A DNA stretch of 14,285 nucleotides from Promethearchaeota archaeon (GTDB lineage Archaea > Asgardarchaeota > Lokiarchaeia > Sigyniarchaeales > SOKP01). The position numbers and the translations under genes were made by a program. Positions 3,716-13,053 of this stretch are shown piece after piece (the stretch's first letter is position 1; each line of letters opens with the position of its first letter). Location: positions 1 through 14,285 of the forward strand of contig JAEOSU010000103.1 of the NCBI GenBank assembly GCA_016840165.1, given 5' to 3'. The notes beneath the pieces are model-generated. The model did not search any database, had not been told where the DNA came from, and was given only the letters and a program-made list of their open reading frames with translations.

Positions 3716-4516
3716 TTATTTTAAGAATCTTTTTGAAGATAAGCGAGTTCCAAGAAACATAAAAAATAATGAAAAGATTAATGTCAAAGGTAACTGCCCT
3801 AAGACAATATATACGAAATTAGGTTCAGCAGAGACAGAATATAATGCAATCGAAATAACAAAATGAATTAGAGAATTCAGAAGCGCAATTTTCCAATTAG
3901 GTGATAAATAACCTAAAATCAAGTTTGGGAGTAAGAATGAGAGAATTATATTCGCAGTTGACAGTAAAATTAAAGCTGGCATAAATCTAGTAAATAATTG
4001 CTCGGGAGTAAGTAATCGATTTAAATTTAGAGTTTCATATATAAATATAGTAGCAAAGATGCTTAAAAAAATGAGAAATGGAGAAAGTGGTCCGACTAGT
4101 ATCCAAGATAAAAATAATCTCCAAAAAGGAGATCTCAAAGTTTTTCCTCTGAGATTATTATTTATTACTTTTTCCATATCCTCCTGAATGATTAATTCGG
4201 GATTATAATCAGGGGCATATAAATTAACAAATTCTAATAAAATACCCCTTAAAATAGAAGAGACTAACTCATTATTGTCATTAGAACTTACAATTGCAGC
4301 CCCCAATATATTTTCCTCATCTATCGGAAATAAAATAAGTTTATTATTTTCTCCAAGATCCACATTCTTTACAATGCTATTTAAAGCTTCTCGGCTGAAA
4401 TTAGCTACTGATGTGAAAAATCCTATAAGAATGTTTTCATCATATTGTTCTTTCATGAAATTTTTGGAATAGAGTAAAAAACCTTGTTCAACTAAAATAT
4501 ATATACTTTTTAACAT
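3716..4516 (-). CDS. Longin-like N-terminal domain plus about 4 transmembrane helices
   Basis: The N-terminus MLKSIYILVEQGFLLYSKNF...ENILIGFFTSVANFSREAL...NKLILF...ILGAAIVSSNDN...ILRGILLEFVNLY follows the beta-beta-alpha-beta-beta-beta-alpha longin pattern (recognised by eye). Four hydrophobic segments lie C-terminally. ATG at 4516 follows AGAGGG and is preferred over the TTG at 4540. Confidence 0.75.
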   Translation of the reverse strand: MLKSIYILVEQGFLLYSKNFMKEQYDENILIGFFTSVANFSREALNSIVKNVDLGENNKLILFPIDEENILGAAIVSSNDNNELVSSILRGILLEFVNLYAPDYNPELIIQEDMEKVINNNLRGKTLRSPFWRLFLSWILVGPLSPFLIFLSIFATIFIYETLNLNRLLTPEQLFTRFMPALILLSTANIILSFLLPNLILGYLSPNWKIALLNSLIHFVISIALYSVSAEPNFVYIVLGQLPLTLIFSLFFMFLGTRLSSKRFLK

Positions 4517-4536
4517 TTTATTCCCTCTTTTTAATT

Positions 4537-6261
4537 TCAATTATAATCTTCAATTTTTTTCTTATCAACAAACTCAATATATTCACTTAAAGTTGCTTTT
4601 GTTTTCTTAAAACTAAATAAGTTCGCTCCAAATAATTCAGTTAATCGAACTATCAAAATATTTGGATTATCTTTCACAAATATTTTAAATTTTTCCATCC
4701 TTCGTTCTTCTATAATCAAATCTACATCCCTCAAATTATACATCTGTCTTATTTTATCCTCTTGAGGATTGTTTAACTCAAGATTAATAATTTCACCATT
4801 ATAGGGTAATTTTTTTATTAAATCATCATAAGTCCCGATATTAGCTTCCTTTTTACTTATTGTTAATATCTGATTGCAATTGCTTACTACTCCTTCAGGT
4901 GCATGAAAAATAAGAACGATATTGAAGTCTTTTTTTATGATATCCATATAATTATTAAATTTCTCAAAATCTAACCGTCCTAAGATTCCAAAAGGCACTG
5001 AAAACATAATGATTGAAGGTGCTTGTAGTAAAGCTCTCCCTATTGAGAATAAAAGAAATTCTAATGGAGTTAATTCTGAAAACCTCTTACTTTTTTTATT
5101 TAATAACCCCGTAACATCTAAAGCGTGCTTTAAAAATTCCTTCTTCTTATTAATTCTTTTTGGTACTCCCGCAATGATATCACTCATGATCTCATCAAAT
5201 CTTGGACTTATACCCGCATTTTTTAAAGTCTCATCTATTTCTCTTTTTTTCTGCTTTAAAATCGCGTCTATATTGATATTGTATTGGATGGCTTTTTTTA
5301 ATTTCATATTCATTATTTTTGAATCATAAGCTTCAGGCAAAATGAAAATAGATTGTTTTTCTTTTTTAGAAAGTAATTGTACAAAACGTCCGAAAACTTG
5401 AATAGTACCTGAAAAATCTTTATAGTTGCCTTTTATCGCTTCAAATAAATCCAATAATTCAATTCTATTATCGGTATTTTTTAAAACCTCTTCATCGAAT
5501 ATAATTCCTAGTGATTTACCTCTATGGATGTTGAATGAAATGTTTTTAATTTGTTCTTGAATACGTAAATTAGTCAAAACTAAGTGTTGTGAATTTAGTT
5601 TCAATGGATCGATATTCACTCTTTTTGCAATTATGCTACAAATGCTATCTACAATCTCATAAATATGAAGTGGATTAACTTCATTCCAGCCTTTAATTAT
5701 CTCTTGCTCATAAAATTCTTTCGCACTCATTATTCTTGCTAGATCCTTCGAAAATGAAATCGTTGGTAGCAAAGGATATTTTTCAAAATTAATCTTTAGC
5801 GAAATAACAAAATTTGGAAAATAAATACATATCTTTCTATGAAAAGGAACATTATTGATGGTATAGTTTTCGTACTTTTGATCTATTAGGTTAACTTCTT
5901 CACTTAAAATCTCTAAGTGTTTTCGAAATTCTCTTCGAATCAATTTTCTCATGCGAGAAATGATTTTTATAGGACTTATAAGCCCATCTTCATCAAAATC
6001 AGGCTCAAAGAGGATCTTATTAAAATCAACTTCATCCTCTATTGGTGTGTAAATTTTAAGAAGAGGTACCCCTTTTTCTAAAACTTCTTTATTAGTAAAG
6101 AATAGTACTTCAAAAAATGATTTCTTATAAATTAAATTCACGATAGAGGCAATACCAAACGTATCTTCTCGATAGGTGATCCAAAATTTCTTTGAAAACC
6201 TTATAGCATCGAGGATTTTGGCTCTTAGTCTTTCTTTCTCGGAAACATTATAACTCTTCAA
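4537..6261 (-). CDS. RWD/UEV (E2-like fold) domain(s) fused to a degenerate ABC ATPase domain
   Basis: LKINFEKYPLLPTISF...GWNEVNPLHIYEIVDSI matches the YPxxP / W..p..I..I UBC/RWD pattern. The ABC scaffold is recognisable (KNISFNIHRGKSLGII, FSGTIQVFG, SIGRALLQAPSII, LIFH), but Walker A, LSGGQ and the Walker B DE are lost. The TTG start has an upstream GGAGGT and overlaps the previous gene. Confidence 0.75.
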   Translation of the reverse strand: MKSYNVSEKERLRAKILDAIRFSKKFWITYREDTFGIASIVNLIYKKSFFEVLFFTNKEVLEKGVPLLKIYTPIEDEVDFNKILFEPDFDEDGLISPIKIISRMRKLIRREFRKHLEILSEEVNLIDQKYENYTINNVPFHRKICIYFPNFVISLKINFEKYPLLPTISFSKDLARIMSAKEFYEQEIIKGWNEVNPLHIYEIVDSICSIIAKRVNIDPLKLNSQHLVLTNLRIQEQIKNISFNIHRGKSLGIIFDEEVLKNTDNRIELLDLFEAIKGNYKDFSGTIQVFGRFVQLLSKKEKQSIFILPEAYDSKIMNMKLKKAIQYNINIDAILKQKKREIDETLKNAGISPRFDEIMSDIIAGVPKRINKKKEFLKHALDVTGLLNKKSKRFSELTPLEFLLFSIGRALLQAPSIIMFSVPFGILGRLDFEKFNNYMDIIKKDFNIVLIFHAPEGVVSNCNQILTISKKEANIGTYDDLIKKLPYNGEIINLELNNPQEDKIRQMYNLRDVDLIIEERRMEKFKIFVKDNPNILIVRLTELFGANLFSFKKTKATLSEYIEFVDKKKIEDYN

Positions 6262-9200
6262 CTTTTGGAACCTCCATTGCTTTATATCTAAAGTATTGTT
6301 CCATTTTGGAATCAGTTTGTTTAATATTTAAAATAGAGCCTATTCCCATTTCCTCCTCGATAAGTTTTTGTAGTTCGATAAGATTTAGGTTAGAAAATAA
6401 AGAAAAATCGGTTCCTGCCTTATTCTCAAGGACTTTTTCAATCCCTGGAAGTAATTCAAGTCGTCTTATCGCATTATCTTTTACTTCAGTAAAGCATATT
6501 TCTATAGATCTCCCCTTACCCGGAAGTTGAATTAATAAATCCTTTGGTTTACCAAAATCTAACATTCCTCGGTTCCTTCCGAATATCGCAACATCAGTGC
6601 AGAATCGGGATTCTTCAGGATAATGTGTAATCACGATTAATGTAGTTTTATATTGTTCATTTATTTTTGTTAAGGTCAACCATAAATTCTCTCTTATAAT
6701 TGGATCTAATCCGGAAGTAGGTTCATCTAAAATTAGGAGAATTGGATTGTGAATAAGTCCAATTGCGATACTCACCCTCCTTTTTTGACCGCCTGAGAGA
6801 TTCTTTACTAACTCATCAATTTTATCTTCTATCTCAAGACTTCGGAGGATCCTACGTGCTTTACGGATAATCTCCTTTTCTGATAGCCCATATTGTTTTC
6901 CAAAATGCAATATATTATCAAGTGTGGTAAAATTTTGGTAAATCTTTCCTAAGTCCTGAGGTACATATCCATATATTGGACGAATTCTTCTTGAATTTCT
7001 TTTATTTATTGGAAGACCGTAAATTTCGCAGAATCCAGTAACTTTTCGCATACCTAACAATCCTTTTATGAAAGTAGATTTTCCCGCTCCACTCTCACCT
7101 AAGATACCTAGTATTCTCCCATGTTCAATATTCATTGAAACTGCATCAACAATTAGTTTCCCTCCCGCAAATACACTTAAATTTTCACAATTAATTGCTG
7201 GAAAATTTTGGAGATACGATGGTGAAAGTTTACTCCCAAAACCTAACATTAGTTTTATTTTCTGAGGAATAGAAAGTCGCTGATAGAGTTTATACAGAAT
7301 GAACAAGGCAATACATCCTGCTTCAATATAGAGTATATAGGTCAAAAGTTGATTCCACGGTTTAAAATCAAATGATTGTTCATATCTTAACTCTTCAACT
7401 ATAATTATCCCATATGGTGTATTTCTTAGATCACCACCAAACCCTGGAGTATCTCCTATTCCTCCAGTCGTAAAACTTATGCACTCTCTAAACCATAAAA
7501 GTGCTTCTTGAATATTTTCCGGCTGATATCGGTAATCATATAAAGCTTTCGAAGCTAAATATGAAAAAAGAAAAGTTGATGGTAATTCAAAATACATGCC
7601 AATTGCGGGTAATAAAGCGAAACTTCCATCTTCACTTTGACTATTTTTCAAAAATTCAATTACAGCTATTTTCGAAATAGGTTCATTTTGAAAGATTTCA
7701 TTAAAAATCTCAAGACCATAATAGGTAGAAACAATATCACTATAGAATCCAACAACTATAGAAAATCCTCCATCCGCATTTTGACATGCCCGTATCCAGT
7801 GTGTGAGATTATCATTATTAATATAATTAATAGTATCCAAATTTTTAAGAGAAATCAAAGCCCAGTATGTAGATTCAACAGTAGAAACATTAGAGTTAAC
7901 GAAATTTTGGAAAAAACCAAAATATGGTCCAAAGAGAGATAATAAATAATCCAAATCATTAGCTACTCGAAAACCTCCATCATCATTTTGTAGCCCAACC
8001 AAAAATTGAGACATTGTGGCGATCTTCGAAGTTGAGAACCAAAGATCAGATAATGGATATAGAATTCGGTATATATTTATTGCGCAATAAGTTGAAAATA
8101 GTGTTGCGTTTAATCCAGGGCGAGAACCGAACCCGCCATCATAAGAGTTAAAACATAAATCTACAAAAAATAAAATATTATCGCGTTGAGACTTCGAGGT
8201 ATAACCCTCTAAATTATATTCATTCAAAGCTAATGTTCCAAAATAGTTTGATTCAATGGTTATTTGGCCAAAAAGTGAATTTTTAGCTTGAAATCGATGA
8301 GTCCAATTATAATAACTGGAGCGATAAAAAGTATAAGGGAAGATTATTGGAAATGCTTCAAGAATATTTAATGATTTCATTGCTGCCCATCCTGAGTTAA
8401 AATCAGAATCAACCATCGGATCAGGAGTTAATCCGAATCCACCATCGATTTTCCTACAACTAGCAATAAAATTTAAGGTACGAGTTTCATTGAAAAACGG
8501 TATAGATAAATTTAAGAGTTCGATAGAGGCTAGTGAATAATAAGTTGATTGAATATCAGACGTTTCTCCTAAAATAGAAGCAAATCCACCATCTAAATTA
8601 TAAAGTGTAGTAAAGTAAGACTCTATAGCTACTTTTTCTATAATAGAATAGCTCATATTCATTCCTAAGAATGCTTGAATCCCATAGAATGTAGTCATTG
8701 GATTTTGAACAAAACTGTTATTCGTTAATAAATATCCACTGCCAGACCAAGTGGAATTAATGAATTTAGATATATTGGAATTCAATAATATGTTTTCAGC
8801 ACTTAATTGATAAGCAATATCAATCGCACTGAAGGTTGAGATGATATCCGATGTATTTATCAAGGGTGTCGCTTTGAAACCGTAACCTCCATCATTTAAT
8901 ACTAATTCCAAATATATTTTTATCTGGTCAGTTTCATTATTCAACATTTTCTCTTCGAGGTATGTTTTATTAGCCAAAGAAATGGTTTTAATTGCAAAGT
9001 ATGTAGATTCGATATTCCCTAAGCCTCCAATATCCGAATATGAACCATCTGTATTCTGTTTTTCAAAAATATAATCAAAAAAGAACCAAGGATTTTTACT
9101 TTTTATCTGAACTGTCGTTATATAATTTGGGTTTATTAGTGCCGGTGAGCTTTCTTCTGCTAAGGTAAAATTGATAGAATCAATCGCTCGAAAATTGCTT

Positions 9201-9415
9201 TCGATAGCAGGCTCAACAAAAAGTCCATCATCATTTTGGTGGCTAAGAGTGAATTTCACTGCATTGGATTTAACAAATTCTACTTCATTCTCAGTAAGAT
9301 AAGAAACGAAACGTGTATTGATTAAAATTAACGTGACAACTGGAGTACCAATTAAAATTAAAAAGATAAACAGATACTTTAATCGTCGTTTTCTTACTCT
9401 ATTTAGCTTGAAAAT
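6248..9415 (-). CDS. Membrane-anchored prenyltransferase/squalene-oxidase (alpha/alpha toroid) repeat protein fused to an intact ABC ATPase; about 1055 aa if started at ATT 9415
   Basis: Repeats include YNLDGGF, CRKIDGGFG, LQNDDGGF, CQNADGGF and SQSEDGSF, each followed by 'STYxA'-type helices. TM LLTYILYIEAGCIALFILY. Walker A GESGAGKST, Q-loop GYVPQ, LSGGQ, LILDEPTSGLD, H-loop ITH. The frame is open 52 codons upstream of the GTG at 9259 and encodes a basic-plus-hydrophobic signal anchor. Confidence 0.88.
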   Translation of the reverse strand: MFKLNRVRKRRLKYLFIFLILIGTPVVTLILINTRFVSYLTENEVEFVKSNAVKFTLSHQNDDGLFVEPAIESNFRAIDSINFTLAEESSPALINPNYITTVQIKSKNPWFFFDYIFEKQNTDGSYSDIGGLGNIESTYFAIKTISLANKTYLEEKMLNNETDQIKIYLELVLNDGGYGFKATPLINTSDIISTFSAIDIAYQLSAENILLNSNISKFINSTWSGSGYLLTNNSFVQNPMTTFYGIQAFLGMNMSYSIIEKVAIESYFTTLYNLDGGFASILGETSDIQSTYYSLASIELLNLSIPFFNETRTLNFIASCRKIDGGFGLTPDPMVDSDFNSGWAAMKSLNILEAFPIIFPYTFYRSSYYNWTHRFQAKNSLFGQITIESNYFGTLALNEYNLEGYTSKSQRDNILFFVDLCFNSYDGGFGSRPGLNATLFSTYCAINIYRILYPLSDLWFSTSKIATMSQFLVGLQNDDGGFRVANDLDYLLSLFGPYFGFFQNFVNSNVSTVESTYWALISLKNLDTINYINNDNLTHWIRACQNADGGFSIVVGFYSDIVSTYYGLEIFNEIFQNEPISKIAVIEFLKNSQSEDGSFALLPAIGMYFELPSTFLFSYLASKALYDYRYQPENIQEALLWFRECISFTTGGIGDTPGFGGDLRNTPYGIIIVEELRYEQSFDFKPWNQLLTYILYIEAGCIALFILYKLYQRLSIPQKIKLMLGFGSKLSPSYLQNFPAINCENLSVFAGGKLIVDAVSMNIEHGRILGILGESGAGKSTFIKGLLGMRKVTGFCEIYGLPINKRNSRRIRPIYGYVPQDLGKIYQNFTTLDNILHFGKQYGLSEKEIIRKARRILRSLEIEDKIDELVKNLSGGQKRRVSIAIGLIHNPILLILDEPTSGLDPIIRENLWLTLTKINEQYKTTLIVITHYPEESRFCTDVAIFGRNRGMLDFGKPKDLLIQLPGKGRSIEICFTEVKDNAIRRLELLPGIEKVLENKAGTDFSLFSNLNLIELQKLIEEEMGIGSILNIKQTDSKMEQYFRYKAMEVPKVEEL

Positions 9416-10471
9416 ATTGCCTCACCCGTATTTAATAATAATTTATCCCTTTCTTCCTCTTCTTGAATTCTTATCTGGAAAAATCTTCGAAAACTGGCAA
9501 GATCACGACTCATGGAATTTACCGTCACTCCCCTTTCAATCATATACTGAATTAGTTGAGGTAAATTTTCTTCAAACGATTCCATCAAGACTTCTACGAC
9601 TTCATTACCCACTCGTAATACTTTTTTTACTGGCGGAAATTCTCTTATTCTGCTGATTTTTGCCTCGTTTAGATCATTTATTTCAAATCTTGCCACCAAA
9701 CCCTTGCTTGGTAATGAATTTACTAAATTTTGTGGGGAATCAAACTCTAACATACGTCCTTCTCTCAAAATAGCAGTTTTATCACAAATAAGAGCTGCCT
9801 CTAAATCATGAGTGATAATAAACATAGTAGTATTTAACTTCTGGTTGAGTTTCTTTAAATAACTAAGGATAGAATAGCGCTTGGACGCATCCACGCCTTA
9901 AACTCTATTAGTTTAAATAACTAAATAGTGTAGTTGGCTCATCTAAAAATAATACACTAGGTTTGTGAATAAGTCCAATCGCCATTGATAGCCTTTTCTT
10001 CTCGCCACCACTCATGTGTTTTACTCGTTTATTCCAAGTATCTTCTGGGATATCTAATATTTCAAATAATTCCTTGGCAATTTTCTTTGCTTCTTTATTA
10101 TCCAAACCGTATGTAGAACTAAACACTTCGACGTTTGCCATAGGACTTAGCTCATAGTAAAGATTTAATAATTCAAGTTGGGGGACATAACCTATATTCC
10201 TGAGTATCTTAGGATGATTTCTTTTATTTTTGGGTGATAATTCAGTAACCTTAACTTTCCCATTCCAGTTCTTCTTTTCTATTTGGCAAGTTAATACTCT
10301 GATAATAGTTGTCTTTCCCGCACCAGAGATTCCAAATAATCCTATGATCTCCCCTTTTTTAACTTCAAAGGATACATTGTGAACTATATGGCTTTTATCA
10401 AATATGACATTTAGATTCTTGACTTCAACCATTAAATCATTTGATTTAACACTTTTGTTCATTAGAATCAT
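9403..10471 (-). CDS. ABC transporter ATP-binding protein (DrrA/ABC-2 type with C-terminal extension), split by a 31-nt intron; exons 10471-9930 and 9898-9403; 345 aa after splicing
   Basis: Exon 1 has Walker A GISGAGKTT, Q-loop GYVPQ, signature MSGGE and Walker B VLFLDEPT. Exon 2 has the D-loop GVD and H-loop FIITHD. Removing 9899-9929 gives GAT GAG CCA ACT AC|A GGC GTG GAT = DEPTTGVD, colinear with the neighbouring paralog's DEPTSGLD. No other lesions were seen. Confidence 0.88.
9420..9426 (-). promoter_or_regulatory. Shine-Dalgarno GGTGAGG preceding putative ATT start at 9415
   Basis: Minus strand reads GGTGA-GGCAAT-ATT, the same 6-nt spacing as GGAGGTGA-6nt-ATG at 1676. Confidence 0.6.
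9854..9924. repeat. 13-bp exact direct repeat TTTAAATAACTAA at 9854-9866 (exon 2) and 9912-9924 (intron)
   Basis: Read directly from the sequence. Both copies are followed closely by ATAG on the plus strand. Confidence 0.8.
9899..9929 (-). other. Putative archaeal bulge-helix-bulge (BHB) mRNA intron, 31 nt
   Basis: The RNA reads GCC-AACU-AC^A-CUAUUUAGUUAUUUAAACUAAUAG-AGUU-UA^A-GGC. Exon helix GCC/GGC, 4-bp central helix AACU/AGUU, two 3-nt bulges ACA and UAA on opposite strands, and intron stem CUAUU(U)AGUU/AACUAAUAG. Cutting after the 2nd nucleotide of each bulge restores the reading frame exactly. Confidence 0.85.
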
Positions 10472-10559: not shown

Positions 10560-12830
10560 TTAAATCTTATCAATTAGACTATAAACTTTAGTCGAGCCTT
10601 TAGTTTTAGTATTAGGGTGCTTATCACAAACCTCAACGATTTTACTTGGAATTAATATTTCTTTAATAATTCTTGAAACATTTCCTGTTGTTCTTTCAAT
10701 TAAATATGCTAAATCTTTAACTGTAAACTCGTTATAACCCTTCTTTTTAATAATTTTTTTAATTAATTTAGGATAAATCAGAAGAATATCATCATTTTCT
10801 AATCTCTTCTTGTTATTGGTCATTTTTATATCAATATGCTTTAATTTTTCAAGGATTTCAGTATTTTTTTCTTTAAATTGAGTCATTAAAGTGTTCACCT
10901 TCTCTATTCCTTTTTTAGTAAATGAAAAATAATTTTGAGTCATATCTTTTAGATATGGTGAAATATTAGTTAAATATCCTTTTTCTAAAAGTTTGGATAT
11001 TGTATGATAAGCATTATGATAGTTGTTGTTAGAAATAATTTCAATATCTTTTGTTCTAAAGCTTTTTATTCCTTTTATATTTAATAAATGGTATATTTCA
11101 AGTATTTTAACTTTCCAAATTTTATTTGGAGGAATATCATATTTCAATGGGGAATTAAACTTGATTTTATCAATATTAAAAAAGAAATTAGAAACAGATT
11201 GCTCGAGATTTTTGACCAAACGAGCCATTTCTAAATTTAATTCAAGAAATTCTCCATCACTGAGAAACTTTTGCATGATATTCTTAAAATTACCAATATA
11301 ATTTGAATGCAATAAAGAATGACAATTTGAGCATAAGCATATACACTCTTCATTTATTAAAGTGTTCAAAATATCGACGCAATCTTGATCCTGTAAATCC
11401 TGCCATCTAGATTTCTTATTTAATGAGTTGTCTTTATGATGGAAATTCATACTCGCAAGATCATCTTTGATTTTTAATCCACATGCTACACATTCTCCGT
11501 TATATAATTGCTCTATAATATATCTTTTTCTTATCCATCTTTTGATTTGGTATTTAATTTTTGATTTTTCTCTATAGTTTTTATACTTTGGATGACTCAT
11601 AATTTCTTTATCTAATAATTTTTCAATTTCTTCTTGATTATGATGGAAAAGATCCGATTTCATAATCAAATCATTGAAGTCGTTAAGAAACTTCGCTTGC
11701 TCCTTAAGGTGACAGTTACCACATAAAGCAAGAATCCTTTCCTCAACAATCCATCTACTTAAGATTTTATAGCTTTTATGATTAATCTTTCTCCATGATT
11801 TTTTCTTCAATGCTGTTTTCTGATGATGGAATTCAAAAGAAGGTAAGTATAATAATGAAGTTGAACATTTACTACATTTTCCATCAAAAAACTCTAGCAG
11901 AAGCTTTAGCTTCTTACTTAATTCTCTTATACTTTTCTTTTGTACTCTGCAATTTTTACAAATAGAACGATAACTTTGTAATCCTCCTTTTTTACCTCTT
12001 TCTCCTCCATATTTGTCAAAAGCGCTTAATGGTAATATTTTGAAACAATAACCACATTTTTTCTGAGTTTGGGCAAAAGCGTAATTTTCGGAATGGTTAT
12101 CATTATTTTCCTCGACTATTTCATTCTCACTGTTAGGTTTTTTAGTATACGCATCGAATCCGTAATCTTTAAGATCCTTCCTGATTACATGAAAGAATTT
12201 GGGAATTTCAGGGACATCCCACATTTCCGAAATGATTCGAAAGGTATTGTTAATGATATAGCGCAGAAAGATGATAAAGTGCTCGCGGTATTGCTCATTC
12301 TCCTGGATTTTTTTCTGGAGTTGTTTTAAGTGCTCATAGAACTGGTTAATTGTAAGTTTATGAAGCTTTCCGAGAAAGTTGACCTTAATTTTTGCCCATG
12401 TGGTTGGTTCAAGGATGTGCTCAAGCTGGTCGAGCAGTTCTTTTGAAATGTCTCGGTTGCTATTTTTCAGAGCTTCAATATCATCGACTTTTTTGATGGC
12501 GAGATAGGTGATTCGCGAGAGGACGAGCATGAGGTTTTCTTTGAAGATGAGAGGGAACTCGGGGTCGAAGCCGATCTGGGTGATAGGATTTAGGTGGTAG
12601 GTTTCTTGTTTTCGCTTCTGCTTAGATTTTTTCTTTTTATGTTTCTTTTTAATATCTTTCTTCTTAGTTTCAGGCTCTTGCGTAGAGTGAATTCTCACTT
12701 CGGTGCCACATAATTCACAATAAACGGGTTCATCATCTTCCTCCAAGAGTTGACGTAAATCATCGTTAAATCGAGCGTTGCAATAGGAACATTGTCGTGG
12801 TAAGGATTTTTGTTTATTCTCAGAGGACAT
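10560..12830 (-). CDS. Multidomain Zn-ribbon / tandem HNH-like nuclease / winged-helix protein
   Basis: N-terminal CSYC...CELC Zn ribbon, Lys-rich linker, CGYC...CKNC finger. Two HNH-like repeats: CSKC...FEFHH...LCGNCH and CVAC...MNFHH...LCSNCHSLLH. Two wHTH-like segments: FRTKDI...ISKLLEKGYL and FTVKDLAYLIERTTGNVSRII. Confidence 0.8.
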   Translation of the reverse strand: MSSENKQKSLPRQCSYCNARFNDDLRQLLEEDDEPVYCELCGTEVRIHSTQEPETKKKDIKKKHKKKKSKQKRKQETYHLNPITQIGFDPEFPLIFKENLMLVLSRITYLAIKKVDDIEALKNSNRDISKELLDQLEHILEPTTWAKIKVNFLGKLHKLTINQFYEHLKQLQKKIQENEQYREHFIIFLRYIINNTFRIISEMWDVPEIPKFFHVIRKDLKDYGFDAYTKKPNSENEIVEENNDNHSENYAFAQTQKKCGYCFKILPLSAFDKYGGERGKKGGLQSYRSICKNCRVQKKSIRELSKKLKLLLEFFDGKCSKCSTSLLYLPSFEFHHQKTALKKKSWRKINHKSYKILSRWIVEERILALCGNCHLKEQAKFLNDFNDLIMKSDLFHHNQEEIEKLLDKEIMSHPKYKNYREKSKIKYQIKRWIRKRYIIEQLYNGECVACGLKIKDDLASMNFHHKDNSLNKKSRWQDLQDQDCVDILNTLINEECICLCSNCHSLLHSNYIGNFKNIMQKFLSDGEFLELNLEMARLVKNLEQSVSNFFFNIDKIKFNSPLKYDIPPNKIWKVKILEIYHLLNIKGIKSFRTKDIEIISNNNYHNAYHTISKLLEKGYLTNISPYLKDMTQNYFSFTKKGIEKVNTLMTQFKEKNTEILEKLKHIDIKMTNNKKRLENDDILLIYPKLIKKIIKKKGYNEFTVKDLAYLIERTTGNVSRIIKEILIPSKIVEVCDKHPNTKTKGSTKVYSLIDKI

Positions 12831-12851
12831 ATTATATATTTTAGCTGAATC

Positions 12852-12859
12852 TATTTAAA
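12852..12859 (-). promoter_or_regulatory. Candidate TATA box TTTAAATA for the HNH-protein gene
   Basis: It lies 22-29 nt upstream of ATG 12830. No SD is present, consistent with a leaderless mRNA. Confidence 0.45.
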
Positions 12860-13053
12860 GAAAAACTTAAAATCATCCCTCAATATGAGAGCATGGAATA
12901 TATTTTAAGCATAAGAACTTTACACTAACCAATACAGCTTTTTTGGAGAATCAGATTGAAGAGCAAGAGAACTATGATACCTCGTTGGATATTGAGGATA
13001 AGTTCTTACAAAATTATAAAAAATATAGTTTATATAGGAGGAGAAAATAAGAA

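What the first reader, a model, noticed from the sequence alone, without database searches (positions are those of the whole stretch)
9895..9938. Canonical bulge-helix-bulge intron inside a protein-coding (ABC ATPase) mRNA
Seen: the two ORFs 9908-10471 and 9403-9894 are halves of one ATPase, broken between Walker B (DEPTT) and the D-loop (GVD) by 31 nt that contain in-frame UAA UAG. The junction RNA folds as a textbook hBHBh' motif: GCC(9938-36)/GGC(9897-95), central AACU(9935-32)/AGUU(9904-01), bulges ACA(9931-29) and UAA(9900-9898), and a 9-bp intron stem with one bulged U and a 5-nt loop. Known: archaeal EndA cuts after the second nucleotide of each 3-nt bulge and RtcB ligates. Applying that rule gives AC^A and UA^A, which rebuilds the Thr codon ACA and the exact 345-aa frame. 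The paralog at about 6700-6730 has the uninterrupted DEPTSGLD. Archaeal mRNA introns are established mainly for crenarchaeal cbf5, where the intron likewise interrupts a catalytic motif. Inference: this is a functional mRNA intron in a non-cbf5 gene of a probable Asgard archaeon, which annotation would mis-call as a pseudogene.
Basis: partly seen in the sequence, partly recalled or inferred. Interest (0 to 1): 0.97.

Follow-up and report, generated by a model that had tools for sequence, protein, structure and literature searches.

The report
tRNA-type intron splits Asgard ABC-ATPase gene
A 31-base insert shaped like an archaeal tRNA intron interrupts an ABC-transporter ATPase gene of an Asgard (Promethearchaeota) archaeon, and comparison with about 125 related gene copies shows the gene is alive and readable only after that insert is cut out of the mRNA, something shown in print for the coding part of only one archaeal gene (cbf5).

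Summary
On the minus strand, a DrrA-like ABC ATPase is broken between Walker B and the D-loop by 31 nt (9929-9899). These 31 nt carry stop codons in both relevant frames. Insert and flanks form a strict hBHBh' motif. Cutting after the second base of each bulge rebuilds a 345-aa frame collinear with intron-less orthologs (DEPTTGVD).

The comparative evidence is strong:
- An insert of 31-34 nt sits at the same site in 12 of 67 species genomes of this family, across 6 genera, and in 21 of 78 metagenome contigs.
- That gives 25 distinct junction sequences. 19 have perfect outer and central helices, and all keep bulge 1 as ACA.
- The central helix shows five complementary versions, and the inner hairpins differ in sequence.
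- Exon synonymous sites that pair in the motif are constrained only in intron-bearing alleles.
- Both exons show dN/dS of 0.02-0.19.
- The genome encodes a catalytic EndA, a second EndA copy without the catalytic His, RtcB and archease.

No RNA data were available, so splicing is inferred. I put it at about 0.88.

In the papers I could search, only cbf5 has a coding-sequence BHB intron. This scan has noted similar candidates on other DNA and elsewhere in this genome. Intron presence varies between alleles that are 96% identical.

The parts
9930..10471 (-). Exon 1 of the ABC ATPase (Walker A, signature and Walker B). It ends after the first two bases (AC) of the second Thr codon of DEPTT.
   Evidence: Pfam ABC_tran 2.7e-26. 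TIGR01188 drrA profile positions 3-153.
9899..9929 (-). 31-nt bulge-helix-bulge intron. Exon 1's frame holds TAA 9910-9908 and TAG 9907-9905. The triplet UAA (9900-9898) just before the first full exon-2 codon is a stop in exon 2's frame, so no single frameshift can bridge the gap.
   Evidence: Same-site inserts of 31-34 nt in orthologs.
9403..9898 (-). Exon 2 (D-loop GVD, H-loop, C-terminal domain and stop codon). It starts with the A that completes the Thr codon.
   Evidence: TIGR01188 profile positions 155-294. dN/dS 0.02-0.19.
9895..9938 (-).
9936..9938 (-). Outer helix h, 5' strand (GCC). It pairs with GGC 9897-9895.
   Evidence: GCC/GGC, ACC/GGU and GCC/GGU variants among alleles.
9895..9897 (-). 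Outer helix h, 3' strand (GGC, the Gly codon of exon 2).
9932..9935 (-). Central 4-bp helix H, exon strand (AACU).
   Evidence: Five complementary H versions across alleles.
9901..9904 (-). Central 4-bp helix H, intron strand (AGUU).
9929..9931 (-). Bulge 1 (ACA). The predicted 5' cut is AC^A.
   Evidence: ACA in all 25 alleles. The cut rule is stated in PMC2738675.
9898..9900 (-). Bulge 2 (UAA). The predicted 3' cut is UA^A.
   Evidence: Nine different bulge-2 sequences among alleles, as expected for unpaired bases.
9905..9928 (-). Inner helix h' (9 bp, bulged U9923) with a 5-nt loop.
   Evidence: Single copy in the genome.

Best explanation
The 31 nt at 9929-9899 are a bulge-helix-bulge intron inside the coding sequence of a DrrA-like ABC-transporter ATPase.

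Proposed mechanism:
1. In the pre-mRNA, the last 9 exon-1 bases, the intron and the first 4 exon-2 bases fold into an hBHBh' motif.
2. The archaeal splicing endonuclease (here a catalytic alpha-like subunit plus a beta-like subunit without the catalytic His) cuts after the second base of each 3-nt bulge.
3. RtcB, with archease, joins the exons. This rebuilds the Thr codon ACA and a 345-aa ORF reading DEPTTGVD.
4. Unspliced mRNA can only give a 187-aa fragment that lacks the D-loop and H-loop.

Shown here: the motif, its conservation and covariation, junction collinearity, purifying selection on both exons, and the presence of the enzymes.

Inferred: the cleavage and ligation themselves, and whether splicing is constitutive or regulatory.
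For: 1. Geometry is exact: outer helix 3 bp, central helix 4 bp, two 3-nt bulges on opposite strands, inner stem 9 bp.

2. The published cut rule (between bases 2 and 3 of each bulge; PMC2738675) gives an ORF with no gain or loss of residues relative to intron-less orthologs.

3. The same site is interrupted in 12 of 67 orthologs from species genomes of the family, across 6 genera, and in 21 of 78 metagenome contigs. Insert lengths are 31, 32, 33 and 34 nt, so the frame offset differs between alleles although the spliced product is the same.

4. Covariation on 12 sequences:
- 92.6% of cells are paired, against 21-53% when the partners are slid.
- 7 of 16 pairs have changes on both sides.
- Covariation score is 0.374 against 0.165 in shuffles (0 of 500 reach it).

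5. Across 25 distinct alleles:
- 19 are perfect in h and H.
- H occurs as UACC/GGUA, GACU/AGUU, AACU/AGUU, AACU/GGUU and AACC/GGUU.
- Bulge 2 has 9 different sequences.
- The inner hairpins differ in sequence. RNAfold gives 4-11 bp for each, and the closing pair forms in 17 of 25.

6. The exon synonymous sites GAR and GGN can pair in 25 of 28 intron-bearing alleles but in only 54 of 97 intron-less alleles (Fisher p = 8e-4; alleles are not independent). CCN/ACN use 5 combinations with the intron against 13 without.

7. dN/dS is 0.02-0.19 for both exons, including pairs that both carry the intron and have saturated dS.

8. Within the 31-nt group, introns are 71-97% identical, while 4-fold sites of the flanking exons are 26-44% identical in 20 of 21 pairs (68% in the closest pair).

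9. In G019, G132, G139 and others the codon after the junction Gly is GTT, GTA or GTC, not a start codon.

10. The genome has two EndA homologs. One has the Tyr/His/Lys pattern and the other lacks the His. It also has RtcB and an adjacent archease gene. Asgard archaea are reported to carry the broad-specificity (alpha-beta)2 EndA (PMC5829648).
Against: There is no RNA-level evidence.

The local folding energy is not better than shuffles (z = -0.58), and the AU-rich central helix is partly open in the MFE.

Three alleles have one mismatch in H and three have one in h. These are relaxed motifs.

No both-side change is needed to explain some of the variation within the 31-nt group, where the changes are wobble-preserving or fall in unpaired bases.
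Confidence: 0.88

Rival explanations
1. EndA-dependent cleavage without productive ligation. The BHB would be a conserved regulatory cleavage or decay site, or a switch that usually leaves the gene off, rather than a constitutively spliced intron.
For: The motif is conserved beyond what pairing needs: introns are 71-97% identical against 26-44% at most 4-fold sites. A BHB in the Haloferax HVO_1309 5' UTR affects expression (PMC7714728). A negative regulatory role was proposed for the cbf5 intron (PMC2738675).
Against: Exon 2 is under strong purifying selection in exactly the post-splice frame (dN/dS 0.02-0.19). It lacks its own start codon in most alleles, so it must be translated as part of the joined mRNA. 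Regulation and splicing are not mutually exclusive.
Confidence: 0.05
2. Translational recoding. The ribosome would cross the 31 nt by programmed frameshifting, bypassing (as in T4 gene 60) or stop-codon read-through.
For: The two ORFs are adjacent, on one strand and in different frames. A hairpin lies in the gap.
Against: - Frame 0 has TAA and TAG at 9910-9905. Exon 2's frame has UAA at 9900-9898. No single shift can connect them.
- Insert lengths of 31, 32, 33 and 34 nt give different frame offsets in orthologs.
- No matching take-off and landing codons: no ACN lies just before the Gly codon.
- Recoding does not predict the exon-intron covariation of H and h.
Confidence: 0.03
3. Pseudogene. 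A small palindromic insertion killed the gene, and the BHB shape is chance.
For: An annotation pipeline would call this a frameshifted gene. The hairpin is AT-rich and its folding energy is unremarkable.
Against: - dN/dS is far below 1 in both halves of intron-bearing lineages, with saturated dS.
- Branch lengths of intron-bearing genes are like those of intron-less ones.
- There are 25 distinct alleles with an intact spliced ORF and a conserved BHB.
- The insert is single-copy in the genome and has no target-site duplication.
Confidence: 0.02
4. Split gene. The two halves would be made as separate polypeptides that assemble into an ATPase.
For: In G000 a GTG follows the junction (9894), so an ORF caller lists a 163-aa product.
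Against: That codon is GTT, GTA or GTC in most other intron-bearing alleles. The split would fall between Walker B and the D-loop of one domain. This reading does not explain the BHB covariation or the constraint on exon synonymous sites.
Confidence: 0.02

Closest known systems
BHB intron in the cbf5 (pseudouridine synthase) pre-mRNA of Crenarchaeota (Watanabe 2002; Yoshinari 2006; Yokobori 2009, PMC2738675)
   Same: - A short BHB intron lies inside a protein-coding sequence and interrupts a catalytic motif.
- The predicted cuts fall between bases 2 and 3 of each bulge.
- The host has a two-subunit EndA.
- The phylogenetic distribution is patchy, which implies repeated precise loss or gain.
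   Different: - The gene is different (a DrrA-like ABC ATPase) and so is the lineage (Promethearchaeota/Asgard).
- The motif here is mostly the strict canonical hBHBh', whereas most cbf5 introns are described as unconventional BHB.
- Splicing is confirmed by cDNA for cbf5. It is not confirmed here.
BHB intron in the 5' UTR of Haloferax volcanii HVO_1309 mRNA (Schwarz 2020, PMC7714728)
   Same: An mRNA substrate of the tRNA splicing endonuclease outside tRNA and rRNA.
   Different: That intron lies in the untranslated leader and does not break a reading frame. Here the frame cannot be read without removal.
Archaeal pre-tRNA introns (canonical hBHBh' at position 37/38 and at non-canonical positions)
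   Same: Same 3-4-3 geometry, same cut rule and same enzymes (EndA, RtcB). This genome appears rich in them: ARAGORN finds only 13 tRNA genes in a genome scored 99.7% complete, and 8 of them have introns. A 2026 preprint describes heavily interrupted Asgard tRNA genes.
   Different: The host RNA is an mRNA. The exon strands of h and H are codons, so pairing is maintained through synonymous sites.
HAC1/XBP1 unconventional mRNA splicing in eukaryotes (IRE1 cleavage; ligation by RtcB in metazoa)
   Same: Both are spliceosome-independent removal of a short intron from an mRNA, by protein endonuclease cuts in stem-loops followed by tRNA-ligase joining. This comparison is from established knowledge and was not tested here.
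   Different: The endonuclease differs (IRE1, not EndA/TSEN), the recognition motif differs, and the eukaryotic system is stress-regulated.

Membership tests
Archaeal bulge-helix-bulge (hBHBh') intron | Two 3-nt bulges on opposite strands, separated by a 4-bp helix | tested here: met
   Bulges ACA 9931-9929 and UAA 9900-9898. Helix AACU/AGUU. H is 4/4 in 22 of 25 alleles and 3/4 in 3.
Archaeal bulge-helix-bulge (hBHBh') intron | Flanking outer (exon-exon) and inner (intron) helices | tested here: met
   GCC/GGC outer helix and a 9-bp inner stem. h is 3/3 in 22 of 25 alleles. RNAfold gives an inner hairpin of 4-11 bp in every allele, with the closing pair formed in 17 of 25.
Archaeal bulge-helix-bulge (hBHBh') intron | Cutting after base 2 of each bulge gives a functional, ortholog-collinear product | tested here: met
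   A 345-aa ORF with DEPTTGVD, identical in register to 55 intron-less orthologs. The rule is cited from PMC2738675.
Archaeal bulge-helix-bulge (hBHBh') intron | The structure is conserved, with compensatory changes, in homologous introns | tested here: met
   92.6% of cells paired, 7 pairs with both-side changes, 0 of 500 shuffles reach the score; five H versions; exon synonymous sites are constrained only when the intron is present.
Archaeal bulge-helix-bulge (hBHBh') intron | The host encodes the splicing endonuclease and an RtcB-type ligase | tested here: met
   Two PF01974 hits (102 and 72 bits). One has a catalytic-type Tyr/His/Lys pattern and the other lacks the His. RtcB scores 556 bits. 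Archease lies next to it.
Archaeal bulge-helix-bulge (hBHBh') intron | Excision and exon ligation are observed at the RNA level | not testable with these tools
   No transcriptome data were available. An exact-match search for the spliced junction in metagenome contigs found nothing, which is uninformative.
cbf5 pre-mRNA intron family (Crenarchaeota) | The intron lies in the cbf5 gene, at the catalytic Asp codon | tested here: not met
   The host gene is an ABC_tran / drrA-like ATPase. It is the same kind of intron but not a homolog of the cbf5 intron.
Programmed ribosomal frameshift or bypass site | One conserved frame offset, an open path between frames, and matched take-off and landing codons | tested here: not met
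   Stops lie in both frames inside the gap. Insert lengths are 31, 32, 33 and 34 nt.
Miniature mobile element (MITE/IS remnant) | Multiple copies in the genome and a target-site duplication | tested here: not met
   No other copy within 4 mismatches of the 24-nt hairpin. The covariance model finds only this locus in the genome (77.8 bits; next best 18 bits, E = 0.5). Across 151 genomes of the order it finds the 12 orthologous loci plus two weak matches (E about 0.007) that are not introns.

The most novel reading that the evidence does not exclude
This intron would be one member of a dynamic, genome-wide population of tRNA-type introns in Promethearchaeota protein-coding genes. These introns would be actively gained (by homing or transposition) and precisely lost, so routine endonuclease/RtcB splicing of mRNAs would be a normal part of gene expression in close archaeal relatives of eukaryotes.

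Points in favour:
- Presence or absence of the intron differs between alleles that are 96% identical.
- The gene tree needs at least 8 state changes.
- Intron identity is far above synonymous-site identity.
- Short stop-bearing inserts lie in conserved motifs of RNase HII and EF-2, and a short insert precedes a conserved motif of mevalonate kinase, in the same genome (earlier notes).

Not shown: any splicing, any mobility mechanism, or how many genes are affected.
Probability: 0.35. Interest if true: 0.88.

Novelty: new member of a known kind. Interest (0 to 1): 0.75.

Why it matters
In the papers I could search, archaeal mRNA splicing within a coding sequence rests on a single gene, cbf5, in Crenarchaeota.

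- **A second example.** This case involves an unrelated gene in an Asgard lineage and has unusually clean comparative support. It shows that the tRNA-splicing machinery can be required for protein expression more broadly.
- **Annotation.** Such genes are mis-called as frameshifted pseudogenes or as two ORFs.
- **A test system.** It gives a compact, canonical substrate for testing Asgard EndA/RtcB activity on mRNA.
- **Intron turnover.** Presence and absence differ between near-identical alleles, which makes gain and loss of protein-spliced introns testable in the archaeal group closest to eukaryotes.

Tried and rejected
1. Generic genome scan. I looked for strict BHB motifs whose removal fuses two ORFs of at least 70 codons each. 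There were 80,469 motifs and 402 fusions, against 377-421 fusions when the cut sites were shifted by 1-2 nt. The scan was uninformative because adjacent same-strand genes dominate. It cannot count mRNA introns in this genome.

2. An ABC paralog at G000:C32:5913-6323 was flagged with "1 TAA inside". That TAA is simply its stop codon, and the gene is intact with DEPTSGLD.

3. Weak covariance-model hits at G000:C100:10400-10447, G037:C796:1328-1372 and G064:C93:32340-32378 are not split genes or introns.

4. An exact search for the G000 spliced junction (26-mer) in metagenome contigs gave no hit. This is not evidence either way.

5. No reverse transcriptase (PF00078) was found in this genome, so RT-mediated loss has no local support. 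The genome is a 105-contig MAG.

6. Thermodynamic significance of the local fold: z = -0.58, not significant. The case rests on geometry and comparison, not on energy.

7. No second copy of the intron hairpin was found in the genome, so there is no evidence here for a repeated mobile family.

Full report
**What is there**

The window is a whole 14,285-bp contig (C98) of a 3.6-Mb archaeal MAG with 31.6% GC. Record titles of its closest relatives name Promethearchaeota, the Asgard kingdom Promethearchaeati.

On the minus strand, two ORFs lie 13 nt apart in different frames: 10471..9908 (187 aa) and 9894..9403 (163 aa). The first is an ABC_tran domain (2.7e-26) that matches positions 3-153 of the drrA-subfamily profile TIGR01188. 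The second matches positions 155-294 of the same profile. They are the two halves of one ATPase. The break falls between Walker B (LFLDE) and the D-loop (GVD).

- Outer helix GCC 9938-9936 with GGC 9897-9895.
- Central helix AACU 9935-9932 with AGUU 9904-9901.
- Bulges ACA 9931-9929 and UAA 9900-9898, on opposite strands.
- A 9-bp inner stem with bulged U9923 and a 5-nt loop.

The order along the strand matches the canonical arrangement in pre-tRNA: outer helix, central helix and bulge on the 5' side; then central helix, bulge and outer helix on the 3' side. In that arrangement the exon-1 strand of the central helix pairs with intron bases.

**The junction**

The published rule places the cuts between the second and third bases of each bulge (PMC2738675). 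Applied here, it removes 31 nt (9929-9899) and yields a 345-aa ORF reading …LFLDEPTTGVDASK….

Unspliced, frame 0 meets TAA and TAG at 9910-9905. The triplet just before exon 2's Gly codon, in exon 2's frame, is UAA (9900-9898). No single frameshift can link the halves.

**Orthologs**

A six-frame search with the C half found orthologs in 68 of 135 species genomes of the same family. I fetched them. Twelve of the 67 used for the tree carry an insert at exactly this position, in 6 genera. The inserts are:
- 31 nt in seven genomes: G000, G007, G019, G132, G139 and G128 (own genus) and G080 (a second genus).
- 32 nt in G060, G145 and G149.
- 33 nt in G055. This one is in frame but contains TAA.
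- 34 nt in G064.

All other orthologs read GAR CCN ACN ACN GGN GTN GAY without interruption, which is exactly the predicted spliced product.

An unbiased protein-pattern scan of metagenome contigs added 80 loci. Of the 78 that cover the junction, 21 have a 31-, 32- or 34-nt insert there. Twelve independent MAGs plus these contigs rule out an assembly artefact.

**Structure conservation**

On the 12-genome alignment:
- 92.6% of cells form standard pairs, against 21-53% when partners are slid by 1-3 columns.
- 7 of 16 pairs show changes on both sides.
- The covariation score is 0.374, against 0.165 for shuffles (0 of 500 reach it).

I also analysed the 25 distinct junction sequences by anchoring at both exon ends, without an alignment:
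- 19 have a perfect outer helix (3/3) and central helix (4/4). Three have one central-helix mismatch and three have one outer-helix mismatch.
- The central helix occurs as UACC/GGUA, GACU/AGUU, AACU/AGUU, AACU/GGUU and AACC/GGUU. Synonymous changes in the Pro and Thr codons are therefore matched by changes in the intron.
- Bulge 1 is always ACA. Bulge 2 has nine different sequences.
- The inner hairpins differ widely in sequence, for example AU-only stems versus GCGU…ACGC cores. RNAfold gives a hairpin of 4-11 bp for each, and the closing pair forms in 17 of 25.

As an internal control I compared exon sites with and without the intron:
- The third positions of the Glu (GAR) and Gly (GGN) codons, which form the outermost pair, can pair in 25 of 28 intron-bearing alleles. 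They can pair in only 54 of 97 intron-less alleles (Fisher p = 8e-4; alleles are related, so this overstates the significance).
- CCN/ACN use 5 combinations with the intron and 13 without.

The BHB fold lies within about 0.3-1.7 kcal/mol of the local MFE in 9 of the 12 genome alleles, 3.2 above it in two (G145, G149) and 6 above it in one (G139). Energy alone is not significant (z = -0.58).

**The gene is alive**

Pairwise dN/dS is 0.02-0.19 for exon 1 and for exon 2. This includes pairs that both carry the intron and whose synonymous sites are saturated. Terminal branches of intron-bearing genes are not longer than those of intron-less ones, apart from G060.

In most intron-bearing alleles the codon after the junction Gly is GTT, GTA or GTC. 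The GTG that makes exon 2 look like an independent ORF in this window is therefore incidental.

Within the 31-nt group, introns are 71-97% identical. The 4-fold degenerate sites of the flanking exons are 26-44% identical in 20 of 21 pairs and 68% in the closest pair. The intron itself is under constraint, or it has spread recently.

**Machinery**

The genome encodes:
- Two EndA homologs. One has the Tyr…His…Lys pattern of catalytic subunits. Its best solved relatives are 3p1z_B and 3ajv_B, which from memory are crenarchaeal heterotetramer chains. The other lacks the His. This fits the (alpha-beta)2 broad-specificity type reported for Asgard archaea (PMC5829648).
- RtcB (556 bits), with an archease gene immediately beside it.

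ARAGORN recognises only 13 tRNA genes in a genome scored 99.7% complete, and 8 of them have introns. This fits the heavily interrupted Asgard tRNA genes described in a 2026 preprint.

**Distribution and turnover**

On the protein tree the intron state needs at least 8-9 changes. Intron-bearing genes sit next to near-identical intron-less ones, for example G064 with G065 and G000 with G127. At the nucleotide level, the exons of intron-bearing and intron-less alleles are up to 96.4% identical over 947 nt.

Either the intron is old and has been lost precisely many times, as proposed for cbf5, or it moves between alleles. I cannot separate these two readings.
- No reverse transcriptase gene was found in this MAG.
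- The intron is single-copy in the genome.
- A covariance model found only the 12 orthologous loci in 151 genomes of the order, plus two weak matches that are not introns.

**Rivals**

- Frameshifting, bypassing and read-through fail on the stop codons in both frames, on the four different insert lengths, and on the lack of take-off and landing codons.
- A pseudogene fails on dN/dS and on conservation.
- A two-polypeptide split gene fails on the missing start codons and leaves the covariation unexplained.
- A MITE fails on copy number.
- A regulatory cleavage role remains compatible with splicing and cannot be excluded.

**Comparison with what is known**

In the literature I could search, the only coding-sequence BHB intron is in crenarchaeal cbf5, and one further mRNA case lies in a Haloferax 5' UTR. 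Yokobori 2009 notes that introns in other protein genes had been predicted but not confirmed. This is therefore a new member of a known kind: the same mechanism class, in a new gene and a new lineage.

Earlier notes of this scan (AI notes, mostly unchecked) list similar candidates in other Asgard and DPANN genomes and several in this same genome. In one search I saw that RNase HII (contig C100) and EF-2 (C1) carry short stop-bearing inserts within conserved motifs, and that mevalonate kinase (C87) carries a short insert just before one. I did not test them further. My own generic scan could not count such introns.

**Verdict**

My confidence that this is a real EndA/RtcB-spliced mRNA intron is about 0.88. 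The missing piece is RNA evidence.

Noticed in passing
G000 contigs C100:~6668-6740 (+), C1:~7918-7976 (+), C87:~6220-6290 (+): RNase HII (GIDEAGR | GPVIGP) and EF-2 (…TDSD | DEEQERGIT) are each interrupted by a short insert of about 30 nt that carries stop codons, within a conserved motif. Mevalonate kinase carries a short insert just before HFVVYGLPAIA. Earlier first-reader notes call all three BHB introns. My strict 3+4+3 scanner did not pick them up, so if they are real they are relaxed motifs.
   Followed up: partly
whole genome G000: ARAGORN finds only 13 tRNA genes, 8 of them with introns of 15-36 nt (plus one call of 461 nt), in a MAG scored 99.7% complete. Most tRNA genes are probably hidden by multiple or non-canonical introns.
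   Followed up: partly
window 6248-9259 (-): A 1003-aa ORF fuses a prenyltransferase-type alpha-alpha toroid domain (PF00432, 7e-35) to a second DrrA-like ABC ATPase domain (uninterrupted LDEPTSGLD at 6727). It lies immediately downstream of the intron-bearing ATPase. Orthologs of 1018-1070 aa sit beside the ATPase in relatives. This is an unusual architecture of unknown role.
   Followed up: no
window 10560-12830 (-), 4537-6261 (-), 3716-4540 (-): Three large ORFs in the same operon-like block (756, 574 and 274 aa) have no Pfam match. The 574-aa ORF has only weak ABC-ATPase-like NCBIfam hits (1e-7).
   Followed up: no
L061 (G145), L063 (G149), L157/L159 (metagenome): Two lineages keep a mismatch at the third pair of the central 4-bp helix (UACC/GAUA and GACC/GUUU). 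If these are spliced, the enzyme tolerates a relaxed central helix.
   Followed up: partly
L058 (G128) vs L156; L059 (G064) vs L072 (G065): Intron-bearing and intron-less alleles are 95.5-96.4% identical across about 950 nt of exon sequence. Precise gain or loss of the intron is therefore evolutionarily very recent.
   Followed up: partly
G000:C64:11156-12892: The RtcB gene (+ strand) is followed immediately by an archease gene on the opposite strand (12473-12892). The ligase and its activator are neighbours.
   Followed up: no
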